This document shows positions 38,701 to 50,300 of a stretch of 64,000 nucleotides of DNA, piece by piece. Made by a program: the position numbers. Position 1 is the stretch's first letter. Every line of letters begins with the position of its first letter. This DNA is from Phyllobates terribilis. Lineage: Eukaryota. The stretch is taken from the NCBI RefSeq assembly GCF_046119375.1, contig NW_027362771.1, forward strand, positions 580,878,001 through 580,942,000, in the 5' to 3' direction.

Positions 38701-41700
38701 ACCAAATCCTGACTGATAGCAGTCCATTCTTGCATAATCAATGCTTGCATTTTGCCAGAATTTGTTGGTTTTTGTTTGTCCACCCGTCTCTTGATGATTG
38801 ACCACAAGTTCTCAATGGGATTAAGATCTGGGGAGTTTCCAGGCCATGGACCCAAAATCTCTATGTTTTGTTCCATGAGCCATTTTGTTATCACCTTTGC
38901 TTTATGGCAAGGTGCTCCATCATGCTGGAAAAGGCATTTTTGGGCGCCAAACTGCTCTTGGACAGTTGGGAGAAGTTGCTCTTGGAGGACATTCTGGTAC
39001 CATTCTTTATTCATGGCTGTGTTTTTAGGCAAGACTGTGAGTGAGCCGATTCCCTTGGCTGAGAAGCAACCCCACACATGAATGGTTTCAGGATGCTTTA
39101 CAGTTGGCATGAGACAAGACTGGTGGTAGCGCTCACCTCTTCTTCTCCGAATAAGCTGTTTTCCAGATGTCCCAAACAATCGAAAAGGGGATTCATCAGA
39201 GAAAATGACTTTGCCCCAGTCCTCAGCAGTCCACTCCCTGTACCTTTTGCAGAATATCAGTCGGTCCCTGATGTTTTTTCTGGAGAGAAGTGGCTTCTTT
39301 GCTGCCCTCCTTGAAACCAGCCCTTGCTCAAAGAGTCTCCTCCTCACAGTGCGTGCAGAAGCACTCACACCAGCCTGCTGCCATTCCTGAGCAAGCTCGG
39401 CACTGCTGGTAGTCCGATCCCGCAGCTGAAACAGTTTTAAGATACGGTCCTGGCGCTTGCTGGTCTTTCTTGGGCGCCCTGGAGCCTTTTTGACAACAAT
39501 GGAAGCTCTCTCCTTGAAGTTCTTGATGATGCGATAGATTGTTGACTGAGGTGCAATCTTTGTAGCTGCGATACTCTTCCCTGTTAGGCCATTTTTGTGC
39601 AGTGCAATGATGGCTGCACGTGTTTCTTTAGAGATAACCATGGTTAACTGAAGAGAAACAATGATACCAAGAACCAGCCTCCTTTTAAAGTGTCCAGTGA
39701 TGTCATTCTTACTTAATCATGACTGATTGATCGCCAGCCCTGTCCTCATCAACACCCACACCTGTGTTAATGGATCAATCACTAAAACGATGTTAGCTGC
39801 TCCTTTTAAGGCAGGACTGCAATGATGTTGAAATGTGTTTTGGGGGTTAAAGTTCATTTTCTGGGCAAATATTGACTTTGCAAGTACAGTAATTGCTGTT
39901 AAGCTGATCACTCTTTGACATTCAGGAGTATATGCAAATTGCCATTACAAAAAATGAAGCAGTAAACTTTGGAAAAACTACTATTTGTCTCATTCTCAAT
40001 ACTTTTGGCCATGACTGTACACTGGGGGGGGGGGGGTGAGGGGCCGGAGGTTATACACTGGGGGGTGAGGGGCCGGAGGTTATACACTGGGGGGGGCGAG
40101 GGGCTGGATGTTATACACTGGGGGGGTGAGGGGCCGGATGTTATACACTGGGGGGGGTGAGGGGCTGGATGTTATACACTGGGGGGGTGAGGGGCTGGAT
40201 GTTATACACTGGGGGGTGAGGGGCCGGATGTTATACACTGGGGGGGGGTGAGGGGCCGGATGTTATACACTGGGGGGGGTGAGGGGCCGGATGTTATACA
40301 CTGGGGGGGGGGGGGGGGGGGCGAGGGGCCGGATGTTATACACTGGGGGGTGAGGGGCTTGATGTTATACACTGGGGGGTGAGATGCTGGATGTACAGAC
40401 ACAACTCTAGGAGCGTCGGACATGTTGGTTGCCTCCAGCTTCCCAGAAGCAGATGGAAGTTATAACCTTGTGGCCAGAATGGCTTCTGTCTCTGGGGGGC
40501 AGCACTTTGTGACACTCACATATTACACTACTTTTCCTGGCAGATGGGTTCTGTCTTTTCCCATGTTTTCGTGCCTCCTTTCTCGTGCCCTGGTTACCCT
40601 TTGTGGTCCCAGGCTTCACCCTTTGTGGTCCGGGCTTTCCCCTGTGAATGGAGCGCGCCCTCACCGGAGCCGCTCGACTCTATTTATTGACATAAAGGCT
40701 TAGTTGTCAGAGCGCAGGTGACACATGACAGATTCTCCTCGTCCAGGTACACACAGCGCAGTATTTACCAGGAGCCGTGTCTCCAACACAACGCCGCTGT
40801 GCCGCTGCTGGAGAGGGGAGCACCACCGGCCACCATGGCATCCAAGACCAGTGGGAAGAGGGCCTCTGTGGCCAGCGTGCGGATCAGCCTGGACAACGCC
40901 GACAAAGCGGGACAGAAAATGGTAAAGTGTGTGACTGAGCTGTAGCATTATAATGTCTGCTGTAGAGTTATAAGCTTATTATATCGCTGATTGCAGCACA
41001 ACCGCAATGAGTAAGTCGGACATTCGTGGTCTGATGTGCGGCCGGGGGTCTCCTGTTCCAAGCTCAACAGTATAATTTGGGGTCAGGAGGGAGACCCCCG
41101 GCCGGCTCAGCCTTGACGCTCCATATTTAGACCATGAATTGTGCTGCAGTTTGCTGGAGCCACATTATATCATGAGACTGAACACAGCACTGACCTTATT
41201 ACACAGACTGGAGCATTATAGCCATATATCAGGTCTGCGGTGAGCGCTGCACTATTATCACCCTATAACACAGAACCAAAACCGAGGTGATAAAGAGGTA
41301 GTGTGTAATAACATTATTACAGGCGTGACGTTATACAGAAGCACAGAGGAGACTATAGGCTCGTACAATGTAATACTGTAGTGTGGGGGGGTAATTAAGT
41401 CAATTAATTTTCCTGAGGGGCCACACTAATAGGCTGAAATAAATTCTGCTCAGTATTAATATTAACATATTAAGTATCACTATTTTATATAATATTAATT
41501 GTATCACTTAATATTGATCAGAATTAAGTATGCTGACATCCCCCTATATACCATATGCCCCGCACACAGCCCACTATATACAGTATGAGCCCCCACACAA
41601 CCCCCTTATATACAGCATGATCCCACACAGACCTCCGATATACAGTATGAGCCCCCACACAGACCTCCGATATACAGTATGAGCCCCCACACACAGCTCC

Positions 41701-47300: not shown

Positions 47301-50300
47301 GGCAACAATAGCACGTAACCGGGTGACATTTTTTTTTTTTTTTGCAGTTCTGAAGTAAAGCAAACATTTAAATTTTACTTAAAGGGCCCATTTATTACAT
47401 AAGAGGTCATTTCTCCCAAAATAATGAATGCTTTTTCTTAACGCCCTGCTGAACCGAAGAAATATGGATATTTATAGATCTCTGATCAGTCCACTCTCCT
47501 AGCATTTGTAATGCTACTTACTCAGGGTTGGTGGCAAAAAAACAGGGGAAGAGAGTGACTGGGGGGCCGCACTCCACCTGGGCCCAGGGTGACTGGGTCA
47601 CCGCCCTCTGCTCGGACCCAGGGTGACTGGGTCACCACCCTCTGCTCGGGTCCAGGGTGACTGGGTCACCGCCCTCTGTCTGGGCCCACGGTGACTGGGG
47701 GGGGCCACCCTCTGTCCGGGCCCAGGGTAACTGGGGGGGGGGGGCGCACTCTGCCTGGGCCCAAGGTGACTGGGGAGGCCACACTCTGCCTGGGCCCAAG
47801 GTGACTGGGGAGGCCACACTCTGCCTGGGCCCAGGGTGACTTGGGGGCCACACTCTGCCTTGGCCCAGGGTGACAGGGGCGACAAACTCTGACTGGGGGG
47901 CCACACTATGCCCGGGCCAAGGGTAACTGGGGGGGGCCATCCTCTGTCCGGGCTTATGGTGACTGGGGGCCGCCCTCAGCTTAGGCCCAGGGTGACTGGG
48001 GGGGGCGCACTCTGTCTGGGCCCAGGGTAACTGGGGGGGCCGCCCTCTGCTCGGGCCCAGGGTAACTGGGGGGGCCATCCTCTGTCCGGGCTTATGGTGA
48101 CTGGGGGCCACCCTCAGCTTAGGCCCAGGGTGACTGGGGGGGCCGCACTCTGTCTGGGCCGAGGGTGACTGGGGGGGCCGCCCTCTGCTCGGGCCCAGAG
48201 TGACTGGGGGGGCCACCCTCTGTCCGGGCTTATTGTGACTTGGGGCCGCCATCTGCTTGGGCCCAGGGTGACTGGGGGGGGGCGCACTCTGTCCGGGCCC
48301 AGGGTGACTGGGGGGGCCGCACTCTGCCTGGGCCTAGTGTGACTGGGGAGGCCACACTCTGCCTGGGCCCAAGGTGACTGGGGAGCCACACTCTGCCTGG
48401 GCCCAGGGTGACTTGGGGGCCACACTCTGCCTGGGCCCAGGGTGACTTGGGGGCCACACTCTGCCTGGGCCCAGGGTGACAGGGGCGACAAACTCTGACT
48501 GGGGGGCCACACTATGCCCGGGCCAAGGGGGACCGGGGGCTGCCCTCTGTATGGGCCCAGGGTGACTGGGGGAGCCACCCTCTGCCCAGGGTGACTGGTG
48601 GGCTGAACTCTGACTGGGGCCAGGGTGACTGGGGGGGCCGCACTCTGCCTTGGCCCAGGGTGACTGGTGGGCTGAACTCTGACTTGGGCCAGGGTGACTG
48701 GGGGTCTTCACTCTGCCTGGGCCCAGGGTGACTGGTGGGCTGCACTCTGCCCAGGCTTTGATTTGCAGAACCCAACATACGGTATGTATAGAGAGTGCTC
48801 AGGAGCCATGTTATATGGCCGCCACCCAGTGCTCCGATCGCAGCAATTTAACCTCTTTAGATGCCGCTGACAATAGTAACCGCAACATTTAGGAGGTTTG
48901 AAATACGTCTGAGTCCCCTAGAGGGGACAAATAAAAATGAAAAAAAAATACAAAATTATAAAAGTCCATATCACCGCCTTTTTCCTGTAATTAAAATCCA
49001 AAATATGAAAAAATATATCAAAATAAATAATAAAAATATTAAATAATTAAAAAAGAAATAAGAAAAAAATATATTTGTTATCGCCGTGTGTGCAATCGAA
49101 ATGGCAAAATCACAGATTTTTAAGGATTTTACACCCCCCACCCAAAAAAATGGAATAAAATGATTTTGGAGAAGTCGTATGGATCAAAAAGTGGTGCCTA
49201 TAAAAGACTACAGCTCATACCGTAAAAAAACACCCTGATATAATGGTATCAAAGAAGAAATTAAAACGTTATATTTATTGAAGGCGAAGAGGGGCCCTCT
49301 GAGACGACTTCGCCATGTACTGACCTATTTCTGCTTTCTCTAACCCCCCCAGCCTCCGTCATTTGCCTCCCGGCCACCAGAGAAGGTCCAGGTCTCCGCC
49401 ATAAGGAACATTCTGGAAAGCTATCTCCCATTACGGTTGGGGGACACCACCTATGAGCCCCAAAAAGTGCCATCGCTAGTGAAGGAGATCAGCGAGGAGA
49501 TCAGGAGCCAGGTGAAGAAGGTCTTACCTGCACGATACAAGATGCTATGTGTGGCCACCATGGGCGAGAGGGGTCAGGAAGACATCAAAGTGGTCAGCCG
49601 CTGCCTCTGGGACCCCCATGCTGACAATTATGCAGCTCACGTGTACCAGAATGATAGTCTGTTCTGTGTGGTGTCTGTATACATGGTATTCTGCGAGTGA
49701 CACTGTGTGGGCCTGCTATGTGGCCGTCACTATATGTCCTGTCTGTCGTCAATGCCACCCCGGCCGTGGACCCAAGGACATTACTCTGCCCGCCGCATAC
49801 AAAGAAACTATGGAGGGAAAACAGACTTGTCAGACTCTGCTGTCTCTAGTAGTTATGGGGAAATGGAGTTTTCAGATGCTCTTAAAGGGTTAATCAGGGG
49901 GCACTAATGATGCCCATCACACAGCCCCCTGTATTGGAGTCTGGTGGGCTGCGCGCAGCATCAAATGTCCAGCTAAGACGGACACTATGGGGCATAACGT
50001 CAGCGAAAAGTCATATATATATATGTAACTACCCCGAAAACCGCTACCAGCCCCCCCCCACCCCCCACGTCTGGACATCACACGAATATCTCACCATGAA
50101 TCTAATGTGTAAGACGTCCCAATAAACCTTCAGGGTCTGGTTACAGATCCAGTGTCCGGTGCTCAGTTATCGGCTGTGATGTGGGATCAGATTTATTCTC
50201 CAGAATAGAAATCCCCGACCTTTATGAATAGAAGTGTTTGTGACCAGCTGCCAATGGAAAGCTGGAGAACGAGGGGCGTAGTGGTACCTCAAATATCAAC

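What the first reader, a model, noticed from the sequence alone, without database searches (positions are those of the whole stretch)
40835..49700. Extra Tctex-1/DYNLT-family gene between TIMM29 and SMARCA4
Seen: four all-phase-0 exons (87+105+57+348 nt) with canonical splice sites, a perfect Kozak and a downstream AATAAA assemble into a 198-aa ORF with a C-terminal Tctex-1 domain and an ~83-aa basic N-terminal extension I do not recognise. Established: human has no protein-coding gene here to my knowledge; the domain looks closest to TCTEX1D1/DYNLT5 and TCTEX1D4/DYNLT4, which lie on human 1p, as does the YIPF2 paralogue YIPF1. Inference: an ancient paralogue (possibly an ohnologue) lost in mammals, likely an axonemal or IFT dynein light chain. 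The ORF stays intact despite introns full of repeats, which suggests selection.
Basis: partly seen in the sequence, partly recalled or inferred. Interest (0 to 1): 0.65.

Follow-up and report, generated by a model that had tools for sequence, protein, structure and literature searches.

The report
Unnamed frog dynein light-chain gene
A real, conserved four-exon gene for a Tctex-type dynein light chain lies between TIMM29 and SMARCA4 in this frog genome; it is already annotated under misleading names and belongs to an old, unnamed branch of the family.

Summary
Exons at 40835-40921, 44191-44295, 46883-46939 and 49353-49700 (+ strand, all phase 0) translate piece for piece into a public 198-aa protein of Phyllobates terribilis (exon 4 100% identical; exon peptides at residues 1-29, 30-64, 65-83, 84-198). 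So the window is frog DNA, not human, and the gene is already machine-annotated as "DYNLT2B-like". Exon 4 is a full Tctex-1 domain (Pfam PF03645, 94.3 bits). The 83-aa N-terminal extension is basic (pI 11.1) and predicted disordered, yet conserved in 21 other anurans.

On the trees it is not the orthologue of DYNLT2B, DYNLT5 or DYNLT4. It sits in clade A with caecilian and cartilaginous-fish proteins (100/94). Clade A is sister to a second unnamed clade B, which holds bony fishes, lungfish, frogs, platypus, tenrec and elephant shrew. An amphibian-only duplication is rejected (AU p 7.7e-5). A split before cartilaginous fishes diverged is favoured but not proven (p 0.07).

Axonemal or IFT function is inferred from family membership only. 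Synteny in other species and the human locus were not checked. This is a new member of a known kind, of modest interest.

The parts
40835..40921 (+). Exon 1: start codon plus 29 codons. It is the least conserved part of the N-terminal extension.
   Evidence: ATG in GCCACCATGG and donor GTAAAG. Equals residues 1-29 of P0001. Mean identity to 21 anuran orthologues is 58.5%. No Pfam family at E<=1. No earlier ATG in the open frame 40691-40945.
44191..44295 (+). Exon 2: 35 codons. It holds the conserved motif GLLAAQRMTKNLK of the extension.
   Evidence: Acceptor tgtgcag and donor gtaagt. Equals residues 30-64 of P0001. Mean identity 78.8%, and 76.4% to non-neobatrachian frogs. The motif is shared with clade B, ray-finned-fish and invertebrate-type relatives, whose profile alignments start at about position 45-50. 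No Pfam family.
46883..46939 (+). Exon 3: 19 codons, a phase-0 cassette.
   Evidence: Acceptor ggttag and donor gtgagt. Equals residues 65-83 of P0001. Mean identity 76.9%. A 179-aa isoform annotated in Anomaloglossus (P0005) equals the 198-aa form (P0006) minus exactly this peptide.
49353..49700 (+). Exon 4: 115 codons plus TGA. It holds the whole Tctex-1 domain.
   Evidence: PF03645, 94.3 bits, E 5.6e-27, profile positions 2-95 of 95. Best solved relative is DYNLT2B chain 8j07_l7, E 1.7e-20. 100% identical to P0001 over 100% of its length.
50121..50126 (+). First AATAAA downstream of the stop; likely poly(A) signal.
   Evidence: Pattern scan. It lies 421 nt after the TGA. Use as a poly(A) signal was not tested.
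40922..44190 (+). Intron 1, with 31-bp tandem arrays on either side of a Tc1/Sleeping-Beauty-like transposon remnant.
   Evidence: Arrays at 41536-41868 and 43456-43798. HTH_SB hit at 42167-42421 and DDE_3 hit at 42892-43176.
44296..46882 (+). Intron 2, with a (TG)n run directly after the exon 2 donor and a 52-bp array.
   Evidence: TG run at 44310-44336 and array at 46057-46480.
46940..49352 (+). Intron 3, with about 1.2 kb of 34/35-bp tandem array.
   Evidence: Arrays at 47555-48751. No Rfam family anywhere in 32000-64000.

Best explanation
This is an expressed, selectively maintained gene of the golden poison frog for a long-form Tctex-type dynein light chain.

The C-terminal 115 residues fold as a Tctex-1 domain. 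By analogy with solved dynein complexes, that domain pairs with a second Tctex-type chain. The pair clamps the disordered N-termini of two dynein intermediate chains at the foot of the IC-LC tower of an axonemal dynein (outer arm or inner arm I1/f) or of IFT dynein-2.

The 83-residue basic, disordered N-terminal tail carries a conserved GLLAAQR...KNLK motif. I take this motif for an extra docking site for an unknown partner.

In evolutionary terms the gene belongs to an unnamed vertebrate branch of the DYNLT family, here called clade A. Clade A is kept in cartilaginous fishes, caecilians and frogs. It is sister to a second unnamed branch, clade B. It is distinct from DYNLT2B, DYNLT5 and DYNLT4.

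Shown: gene structure, domain, conservation, tree position. Inferred: dimerisation, intermediate-chain binding, which dynein it serves, and the role of the tail.
For: Gene model
- The exon peptides tile P0001 exactly.
- NCBI models of about 198 aa exist in 25 anuran species.

Selection
- 21 orthologues show 77% mean column identity and 50 invariant columns, some of them in the extension.
- Exon 2 is as conserved as the domain.

Domain and fold
- PF03645 at 94.3 bits.
- An AlphaFold2 model of the Xenopus tropicalis orthologue has block-mean pLDDT 77-92 (one block 63) for residues about 90-197 and 35-58 for residues 1-89.
- Foldseek puts the model on DYNLT2B in the human axoneme (8j07_l7: E 9.4e-9, TM 0.81 on the target). 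33 PDB chains match at E<=0.001; all that are listed are Tctex-type light chains.

Separate branch (70-row careful tree)
- Clade A 100/94.
- A+B 94/92.
- DYNLT4-type clade 95/96.
- DYNLT5 clade 100/98, including amphioxus and Aplysia.
- DYNLT2B-type clade 98/93.
- Named DYNLT5 exists in at least 12 anuran species, among them Anomaloglossus, a dendrobatoid.

Age
- An amphibian-only duplication is rejected: dlnL 56.9, p-AU 7.7e-5.

Mechanism by analogy
- Passages of PMC10886578 state that the outer arm, inner arm f and dynein-2 each carry a Tctex heterodimer at the N-terminal end of the IC-LC tower.

Lead for function
- In supplementary file 1 of PMC7785291, a Dnai2 (outer-arm) pull-down from Xenopus multiciliated cells enriches an orthogroup labelled TCTEX1D1 (counts 0, 0 against 5, 10).
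- That orthogroup lumps Tctex1d1-A/B with three unnamed LOC gene pairs.
Against: - No expression, localisation or binding data for this gene were seen. I could not map the Xenopus LOC genes in the pull-down table to clade A or B, so that lead may not concern this gene at all.
- The tree with cartilaginous fishes placed outside (amphibian A + B + ray-finned fishes) is only 5.9 lnL worse and is not rejected (p-AU 0.0696). Clade A may therefore be younger than the gnathostome ancestor.
- Holding clade A together with DYNLT4 is rejected only marginally (p-AU 0.038).
- All three AU tests were framed after the first tree had been seen.
- Whether frogs also carry an RVSF-type DYNLT4 was not established.
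- The structure model is of the X. tropicalis orthologue (70% identical in the domain), not of the window's protein.
Confidence: 0.8

Rival explanations
1. It is simply the frog orthologue, or a recent copy, of DYNLT2B, as the NCBI names 'DYNLT2B-like' and, for Xenopus laevis, 'DYNLT2B' suggest.
For: 17 of the 26 hits carry a DYNLT2B / tctex1d2 name. DYNLT2B is the best solved relative.
Against: - Foldseek identity to the human DYNLT2B chain is only 36%.
- DYNLT2B-type representatives, including P0150, which closely resembles the human chain shown, form their own clade (98/93) on the far side of the tree.
- The protein has an 83-aa extension, whereas DYNLT2B is 142 aa (table in PMC10886578).
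- DYNLT2B ranks first in the PDB largely because no DYNLT4- or DYNLT5-named chain appeared among the hits.
Confidence: 0.03
2. It is the amphibian and cartilaginous-fish form of DYNLT4 (TCTEX1D4), moved to a new place in the genome.
For: The DYNLT4-type clade is the next branch outside A+B, with weak support (55/89). Holding A with DYNLT4 costs only 12.5 lnL (p-AU 0.038). I did not show that frogs have a separate DYNLT4.
Against: - The DYNLT4-type clade (95/96) already holds both ray-finned fishes and amniote-like sequences.
- Amia has both a DYNLT4-type protein (P0208) and an A/B-type protein (P0189).
- The RVSF docking motif is present in 4 of 6 fish DYNLT4-type proteins. An RVxF-like match occurs in only 2 of 32 clade-A proteins, both Xenopus, and not in the window's protein.
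Confidence: 0.07
3. It is a duplicate made within amphibians from clade B, or from DYNLT5.
For: Frogs carry both A and B. Some clade A and B proteins are named 'DYNLT5-like'.
Against: - An amphibian-only A+B clade is rejected (p-AU 7.7e-5).
- Anuran B is sister to amniote B (98/94).
- DYNLT5 is a separate clade with invertebrate members (100/98).
Confidence: 0.02
4. It is an annotation artefact or a decaying pseudogene whose open frame is chance.
For: Open AG..GT-flanked stretches of the right length are common in the introns (8 of 105 nt and 9 of 57 nt). The introns are repeat-rich.
Against: - Every exon peptide is conserved across frogs that split long ago: exon 2 is 76.4% and exon 4 is 70.3% identical to non-neobatrachian orthologues.
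- There is no stop or frameshift.
- The exon regions have no second copy in the window.
Confidence: 0.02

Closest known systems
Unnamed clade B (annotated 'DYNLT4-like', 'DYNLT5-B-like', 'Tctex1d1' or 'LOC...' in frogs, lungfish, platypus, tenrec and elephant shrew)
   Same: It is the sister clade (A+B 94/92). It has the same build: a long disordered N-terminus with the GLLAAQR...LK motif, followed by a Tctex-1 domain.
   Different: - B proteins are about 220-230 aa.
- 11 of 14 examined carry an RVxF-like motif near the N-terminus (8 RVTF, 1 KVSF, 2 KGVTF). Only 2 of 32 clade-A proteins do.
- B groups with ray-finned-fish genes (89/79) and persists in some mammals.
- In Rhinophrynus, Pseudophryne, Rhinoderma and Protopterus, B shares its longest-contig length with DYNLT5. 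In the three frogs A lies on a contig of another length; no clade-A protein of Protopterus was seen.
DYNLT4 (TCTEX1D4)
   Same: A long-form Tctex light chain with a disordered N-terminal half and a C-terminal domain. It is the next branch outside A+B, weakly supported (55/89). PMC3654263 describes it as vertebrate-only and probably born by duplication (passages).
   Different: It forms a separate clade (95/96). Its RVSF PP1-docking motif is absent from the window's protein. Its sequence around the start of the domain is of another type.
DYNLT2B (TCTEX1D2 / Tctex2b)
   Same: Best solved relative (E 1.7e-20; TM 0.81 on the target). It gives the structural template for how such a chain sits in inner arm I1/f, the outer arm and dynein-2, as a heterodimer with DYNLT1 (8rgi; PMC10886578).
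   Different: It is 142 aa with a short N-terminus and falls in a different clade (98/93).
DYNLT5 (TCTEX1D1)
   Same: Tctex-1 domain; about 177-180 aa with an N-terminal extension. Some clade-A proteins are auto-named 'DYNLT5-like'.
   Different: It is a distinct, ancient clade with amphioxus and mollusc orthologues (100/98). Frogs have it as well as clade A. It lacks the GLLAAQR motif (sequences).

Membership tests
Tctex-1 / DYNLT dynein light-chain family (Pfam PF03645) | Sequence match to the Tctex-1 profile above the curated cut-off, over the whole domain | tested here: met
   Exon 4 scores 94.3 bits against a cut-off of 22.8 and covers profile positions 2-95 of 95.
Tctex-1 / DYNLT dynein light-chain family (Pfam PF03645) | Two-helix, four-strand Tctex fold | tested here: met
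   AF2 model of the X. tropicalis orthologue: helices 92-111 and 121-139, strands 144-154, 174-181 and 185-195; pLDDT blocks 77-92 except one of 63 (residues 161-170). The segment 159-165, strand 2 in solved dimers (recalled), came out as a helix in the monomer model. The top Foldseek hits are all Tctex-type chains. The window's own protein was not modelled.
Tctex-1 / DYNLT dynein light-chain family (Pfam PF03645) | Dimerises and binds a dynein intermediate chain | not tested
   No complex prediction or experiment was run; this is inferred from homology.
DYNLT2B | Falls in the DYNLT2B clade; about 140 aa with a short N-terminus | tested here: not met
   DYNLT2B-type rows form a separate 98/93 clade. 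The protein is 198 aa with an 83-aa extension. The DYNLT2B-type rows carry no source names; they were recognised by likeness to the human chain.
DYNLT5 | Falls in the DYNLT5 clade and is the only such gene in the species group | tested here: not met
   The DYNLT5 clade (100/98) excludes it. Named DYNLT5 is present in at least 12 anuran species.
DYNLT4 | Falls in the DYNLT4 clade | tested here: not met
   The DYNLT4-type clade (95/96) excludes it. Holding A with DYNLT4 gives p-AU 0.038, a marginal and post hoc result.
DYNLT4 | RVSF (RVxF) PP1-docking motif in the N-terminal half (PMC3654263) | tested here: not met
   No [RK]x0-1[VI]{P}[FW] match in P0001. 2 of 32 clade-A proteins match (both Xenopus, KVSF), against 4 of 6 fish DYNLT4-type proteins.
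Unnamed clade A (this gene's own group) | Groups with caecilian and cartilaginous-fish proteins; N-terminal GLLAAQR...TKNLKER motif followed by the Tctex domain | tested here: met
   Clade A 100/94 and 97. The motif is seen.
Ohnologue pair (2R) with clade B | Paralogues lie in paralogous chromosome blocks, and the duplication dates to before the gnathostome radiation | tested here: inconclusive
   The free tree puts cartilaginous fishes with A, but the alternative is not rejected (p 0.0696). Contig-length clues put B with DYNLT5 and A elsewhere. True synteny is not testable with these tools.

The most novel reading that the evidence does not exclude
Jawed vertebrates began with at least eight DYNLT genes, not the six named in human. 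Clades A and B would be two unnamed ohnologues of the DYNLT4 lineage.
- A lies in the 19p13-like block, next to SMARCA4 and TIMM29.
- B lies in the 1p-like block, with DYNLT5 and DYNLT4.
- A would have been lost independently in ray-finned fishes, lungfish and amniotes, but kept in sharks, caecilians and frogs as a specialised axonemal (perhaps outer-arm) light chain of motile cilia or sperm.
- Its tail would have lost the PP1-docking motif that B and DYNLT4 keep.
Probability: 0.3. Interest if true: 0.45.

Novelty: new member of a known kind. Interest (0 to 1): 0.3.

Why it matters
It adds a distinct, so far unnamed branch to a small and well-studied family of dynein subunits. With clade B it adds two.

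The automatic names for these genes (2B-like, 5-like, 4-like) are inconsistent and misleading. This has a practical side: Xenopus is a main model for motile cilia, and in one Xenopus pull-down table three unnamed LOC gene pairs are lumped with Tctex1d1. Light-chain assignments in frog axonemal dyneins may therefore be blurred.

The patchy retention (sharks and amphibians, not amniotes) is a tidy case of differential paralogue loss. It does not change how dyneins are understood.

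Tried and rejected
- Exons 1-3 searched singly against Pfam: no family at E<=1. Exon 3 is 19 aa, below the 20-aa minimum (error). It was re-sent as its 71-aa stop-to-stop frame, which reads on into the intron.
- RFX X-box scan (consensus recalled from memory), as a sign of a ciliary promoter. There were 22 matches at <=1 mismatch against 10.75 expected; 1 of 100 shuffles reached 22. None lies within 4 kb upstream of the ATG. 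The nearest matches are in introns 2 and 3. This gives no support for a ciliary promoter.
- CpG content at exon 1: observed/expected reaches only 0.79 in 40600-40799 at 55% G+C, so it is not a clear island.
- Rfam over 32000-64000: 0 matches.
- blastn of the four exon regions and of the 5' part of intron 3 against the window: no second copy.
- ESM Atlas with exon 4: only generic Tctex-1 clusters (scores 0.92-0.93), nothing more specific.
- Literature: no paper describing this branch was found with the terms. The three Xenopus LOC names occur in no searchable main text.
- Complex prediction was not used. A homodimer pass would rest on likeness to solved Tctex dimers and would not tell which dynein the protein serves.
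- The spliced model was never joined. Each exon was searched on its own, and full-length work used public database proteins by their ids.

Full report
**Origin of the window.** The translation of 49353-49697 is 100% identical, over its full length, to the C-terminal part of a 198-aa NCBI protein. [quoted passage not shown] The window is therefore golden poison frog DNA. I do not take it for human. It holds no N.

**The observation.**
- Exon 1 runs from the ATG at 40835, set in GCCACCATGG, to 40921 and is followed by GTAAAG.
- Exon 4 runs from 49353, after ...cccccccag, to the TGA at 49698-49700.
I scanned the interval for open stretches flanked by AG and GT of exactly 105 and 57 nt. The scan returned 8 and 9 candidates, so such exons are not rare by chance.
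- The pair with good splice sites is 44191-44295 and 46883-46939.
- The four exon translations lie end to end at residues 1-29, 30-64, 65-83 and 84-198 of P0001.
- The first AATAAA lies at 50121.
Each was searched alone, and the joined step was left out. Full-length comparisons used public proteins by id.

**What the protein is.**
- Exon 4 is a complete Tctex-1 domain (PF03645, 94.3 bits).
- Exons 1-3 match no Pfam family.
- Among solved structures, 19 distinct sequences match at E<=0.01. The best are human DYNLT2B (1.7e-20) and Chlamydomonas outer-arm LC2 (7.1e-19). DYNLT1 follows far behind (8e-8).
- The N-terminal 83 residues are basic (pI 11.12).
- An AlphaFold2 model was made of the X. 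tropicalis orthologue from the 21-sequence alignment A1. Residues 1-89 have block-mean pLDDT 35-58. The Tctex part, from about residue 90, scores 77-92 apart from one block of 63.
- Foldseek places the model on Tctex-type chains of axonemal and cytoplasmic dyneins.

**Selection.**
- One search returned 26 proteins from 29 candidates. All come from anurans (25 species) and most are 192-202 aa.
- The 21 full-length orthologues other than P0001 align with 77% mean column identity.
- Mean identity to P0001 per exon is 58.5, 78.8, 76.9 and 79.9%.
- Exon 2, which carries the motif GLLAAQRMTKNLK, is as conserved as the domain.
- A 179-aa Anomaloglossus isoform lacks exactly the exon-3 peptide. This fits a phase-0 cassette behind a weak acceptor.

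**Wider family.**
- A profile of A1 was run against 1.84 billion cluster representatives. It found 2390 proteins at E<=1e-3 and 11 at E<=1e-30.
- Many 200-240-aa hits align from profile position about 45-50. The tail motif is therefore shared beyond frogs.
- A word-indexed search with 13 of these hits (A2) gave 49 proteins among 8000 candidates. They fall into these groups:
  - a second frog paralogue of about 224 aa, here clade B, in ten anuran species;
  - proteins of about 212 aa from a chimaera, sharks and rays;
  - a caecilian protein of 201 aa;
  - lungfish, sturgeon, Amia, eel and teleost proteins;
  - platypus, tenrec and elephant-shrew proteins named 'DYNLT4-like';
  - at lower scores, fish 'tctex1d4' proteins that carry RVSF.
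- A third search (A3) found 1257 proteins. The best 120 listed are mostly named DYNLT5 or Tctex1d1. They include at least 12 anuran species, a salamander, coelacanth, sharks, mammals, amphioxus and molluscs.

**Trees.**
- The quick tree of 82 rows and the careful tree of 70 rows over 204 columns agree.
- I chose the rows by hand from the 331 proteins held. Left out were 14 of the 22 full-length anuran A proteins, fragments, most DYNLT5 proteins (10 were used) and all primates.
- Support values in the careful tree:
  - clade A (6 cartilaginous fishes + 2 caecilian-type + 8 anurans): 100/94;
  - clade B with ray-finned fishes: 89/79;
  - A+B: 94/92;
  - DYNLT4-type clade: 95/96, joined to A+B only at 55/89;
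  - DYNLT5: 100/98;
  - DYNLT2B-type: 98/93;
  - an invertebrate-type clade: 100/99.
- One long-branch, G+C-rich representative of unknown origin (P0066) falls just outside A+B. By BLAST it is nearest to B.
- AU tests, all framed after the first tree had been seen:
  - cartilaginous fishes outside the rest: not rejected (dlnL 5.9, p 0.0696);
  - amphibian-only duplication: rejected (dlnL 56.9, p 7.7e-5);
  - A held with DYNLT4: marginally rejected (dlnL 12.5, p 0.038).

**Distribution.**
- I classed the 150 best representatives by best BLAST hit, requiring >=45% identity over >=100 residues:
  - clade A: 3 (one anuran, one caecilian-like, one chimaera);
  - clade B: 6;
  - the ray-finned-fish group: 9;
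  - DYNLT4-type: 8;
  - DYNLT5: 23;
  - below the threshold: 100;
  - no hit: 1.
- An amniote clade-A protein should have scored like the caecilian and chimaera ones (about 200 bits), so it would have been listed unless it clusters with them at >=50% identity.
- This argues for loss of A in amniotes. It depends, however, on gene predictions existing in those genomes.

**Chromosome clue.** The tables give the length of the longest contig that holds each protein.
- Clade B and DYNLT5 share that length in Rhinophrynus (512,950,924), Pseudophryne (483,890,470), Rhinoderma (145,653,269) and Protopterus (1,842,211,721).
- In the three frogs, clade A sits on a contig of another length. No clade-A protein of Protopterus was seen.
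- The A/B-type and the DYNLT4-type proteins of Amia share 26,952,541.
- This fits B lying with DYNLT5 and DYNLT4 while A lies elsewhere. It says nothing about distance or gene order.
- Real synteny could not be examined.
- The human locus was not looked at.

**Tail motifs.**
- An RVxF-like PP1-docking pattern occurs in 11 of 14 clade-B proteins and 4 of 6 fish DYNLT4-type proteins.
- It occurs in only 2 of 32 clade-A proteins (both Xenopus, KVSF) and not in the window's protein.

**Function.**
- From the passages read: DYNLT2B serves dynein-2 and inner arm I1/f, and DYNLT2 serves the outer arm (PMC8754002). The outer arm, inner arm f and dynein-2 each start their IC-LC tower with a Tctex heterodimer (PMC10886578). 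DYNLT4 and DYNLT5 are poorly characterised (PMC8754002).
- By homology I expect the frog protein to take the long-form position in such a heterodimer.
- The only experimental lead comes from supplementary file 1 of PMC7785291. A Dnai2 pull-down from Xenopus multiciliated cells enriches an orthogroup labelled TCTEX1D1. That orthogroup lumps Tctex1d1-A/B with loc100498184, loc101735200 and loc100495666 (L and S copies).
- I could not map these names to clades A or B.
- An X-box scan gave no promoter support.

**Print status.** Searches found no paper that describes this branch.
- The nomenclature paper (PMC8754002; passages and the legend of Fig. 4) lists six human paralogues.
- PMC3654263 (passages) treats TCTEX1D4 as vertebrate-only.
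- Papers outside the held library, and supplements not held, may bear on this.

**Verdict.** The gene is real and conserved. It is already machine-annotated but misnamed, and it belongs to an old unnamed DYNLT branch. It is ordinary in mechanism and of modest interest for evolution and nomenclature.

Noticed in passing
window 38628-39716 (-), with flanks about 37829-38560 and 40029-40394: An uninterrupted 363-aa Tc1/mariner-type transposase frame (HTH_Tnp_Tc3_2 at 67 bits, DDE_3 at 52 bits) lies 1.1 kb upstream of the gene's ATG. A 31-bp tandem array follows it on one side (TRF). Repetitive frames of the same look lie on the other side. It may be a young or active element.
   Followed up: partly
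window 42167-43176 (+), arrays 41536-41868 and 43456-43798: A Sleeping-Beauty-like Tc1 remnant (HTH_SB, DDE_3; broken frame) lies inside intron 1. Related 31-bp tandem arrays flank it on both sides, the same layout as around the intact copy upstream.
   Followed up: partly
window 47215-47228 and 47293-47306 (intron 3): Two good RFX X-box-like palindromes lie 78 bp apart, one perfect to the recalled consensus and one with 1 mismatch. The stretch is not a repeat of anything else in the window. It could be an intronic RFX site or chance.
   Followed up: partly
proteins P0033, P0176-P0187, P0177, P0047, P0188, P0200 (not in the window): There is a second unnamed DYNLT branch, clade B. It has a conserved RVTF motif near the N-terminus in frogs. 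It is present in platypus, tenrec and elephant shrew under the name 'DYNLT4-like', and it shares its contig length with DYNLT5 in three frogs and a lungfish. Whether other mammals keep it was not examined.
   Followed up: partly
proteins P0202, P0207, P0208, P0131, P0119, P0121: Ray-finned-fish and other DYNLT4-type proteins carry RVSFSGLPL. The passages read in PMC3654263 say that the PP1-binding motif arose in placental mammals. On these sequences the motif looks much older.
   Followed up: no
protein P0016 (Xenopus laevis) and supplementary files of PMC7785291: The X. laevis clade-A protein is named plain 'DYNLT2B' by NCBI. A Xenopus pull-down table lumps three unnamed LOC gene pairs with Tctex1d1. 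Light-chain identities in frog cilia studies may be mixed up.
   Followed up: partly
window 30467-32052: A block of 65% G+C with strong G and A skew is open for 400-520 codons in five reading frames on both strands. It is evidently a long tandem array just upstream of TIMM29 exon 1. No tandem-repeat run was made there.
   Followed up: no
window 33205-34142: A long tandem array, seen as repetitive frames on both strands, lies inside the TIMM29 intron. It ends just before the Tim29-domain exon (34030-34707).
   Followed up: no
window 50367-51333 and 53528-54641: Between the gene and SMARCA4 lie a 28-bp array of about 36 copies and a further block of about 1.1 kb with repetitive proline- or glycine-rich frames on both strands. 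The tested frames match no Pfam family.
   Followed up: no
window 10499-12679 (-): Retroelement fragments: an integrase core (rve, 40.4 bits) and a reverse transcriptase (RVT_1, 41.6 bits).
   Followed up: no
It matched no Pfam family at E<=0.001, so the YIPF2 call was not verified.
   Followed up: partly
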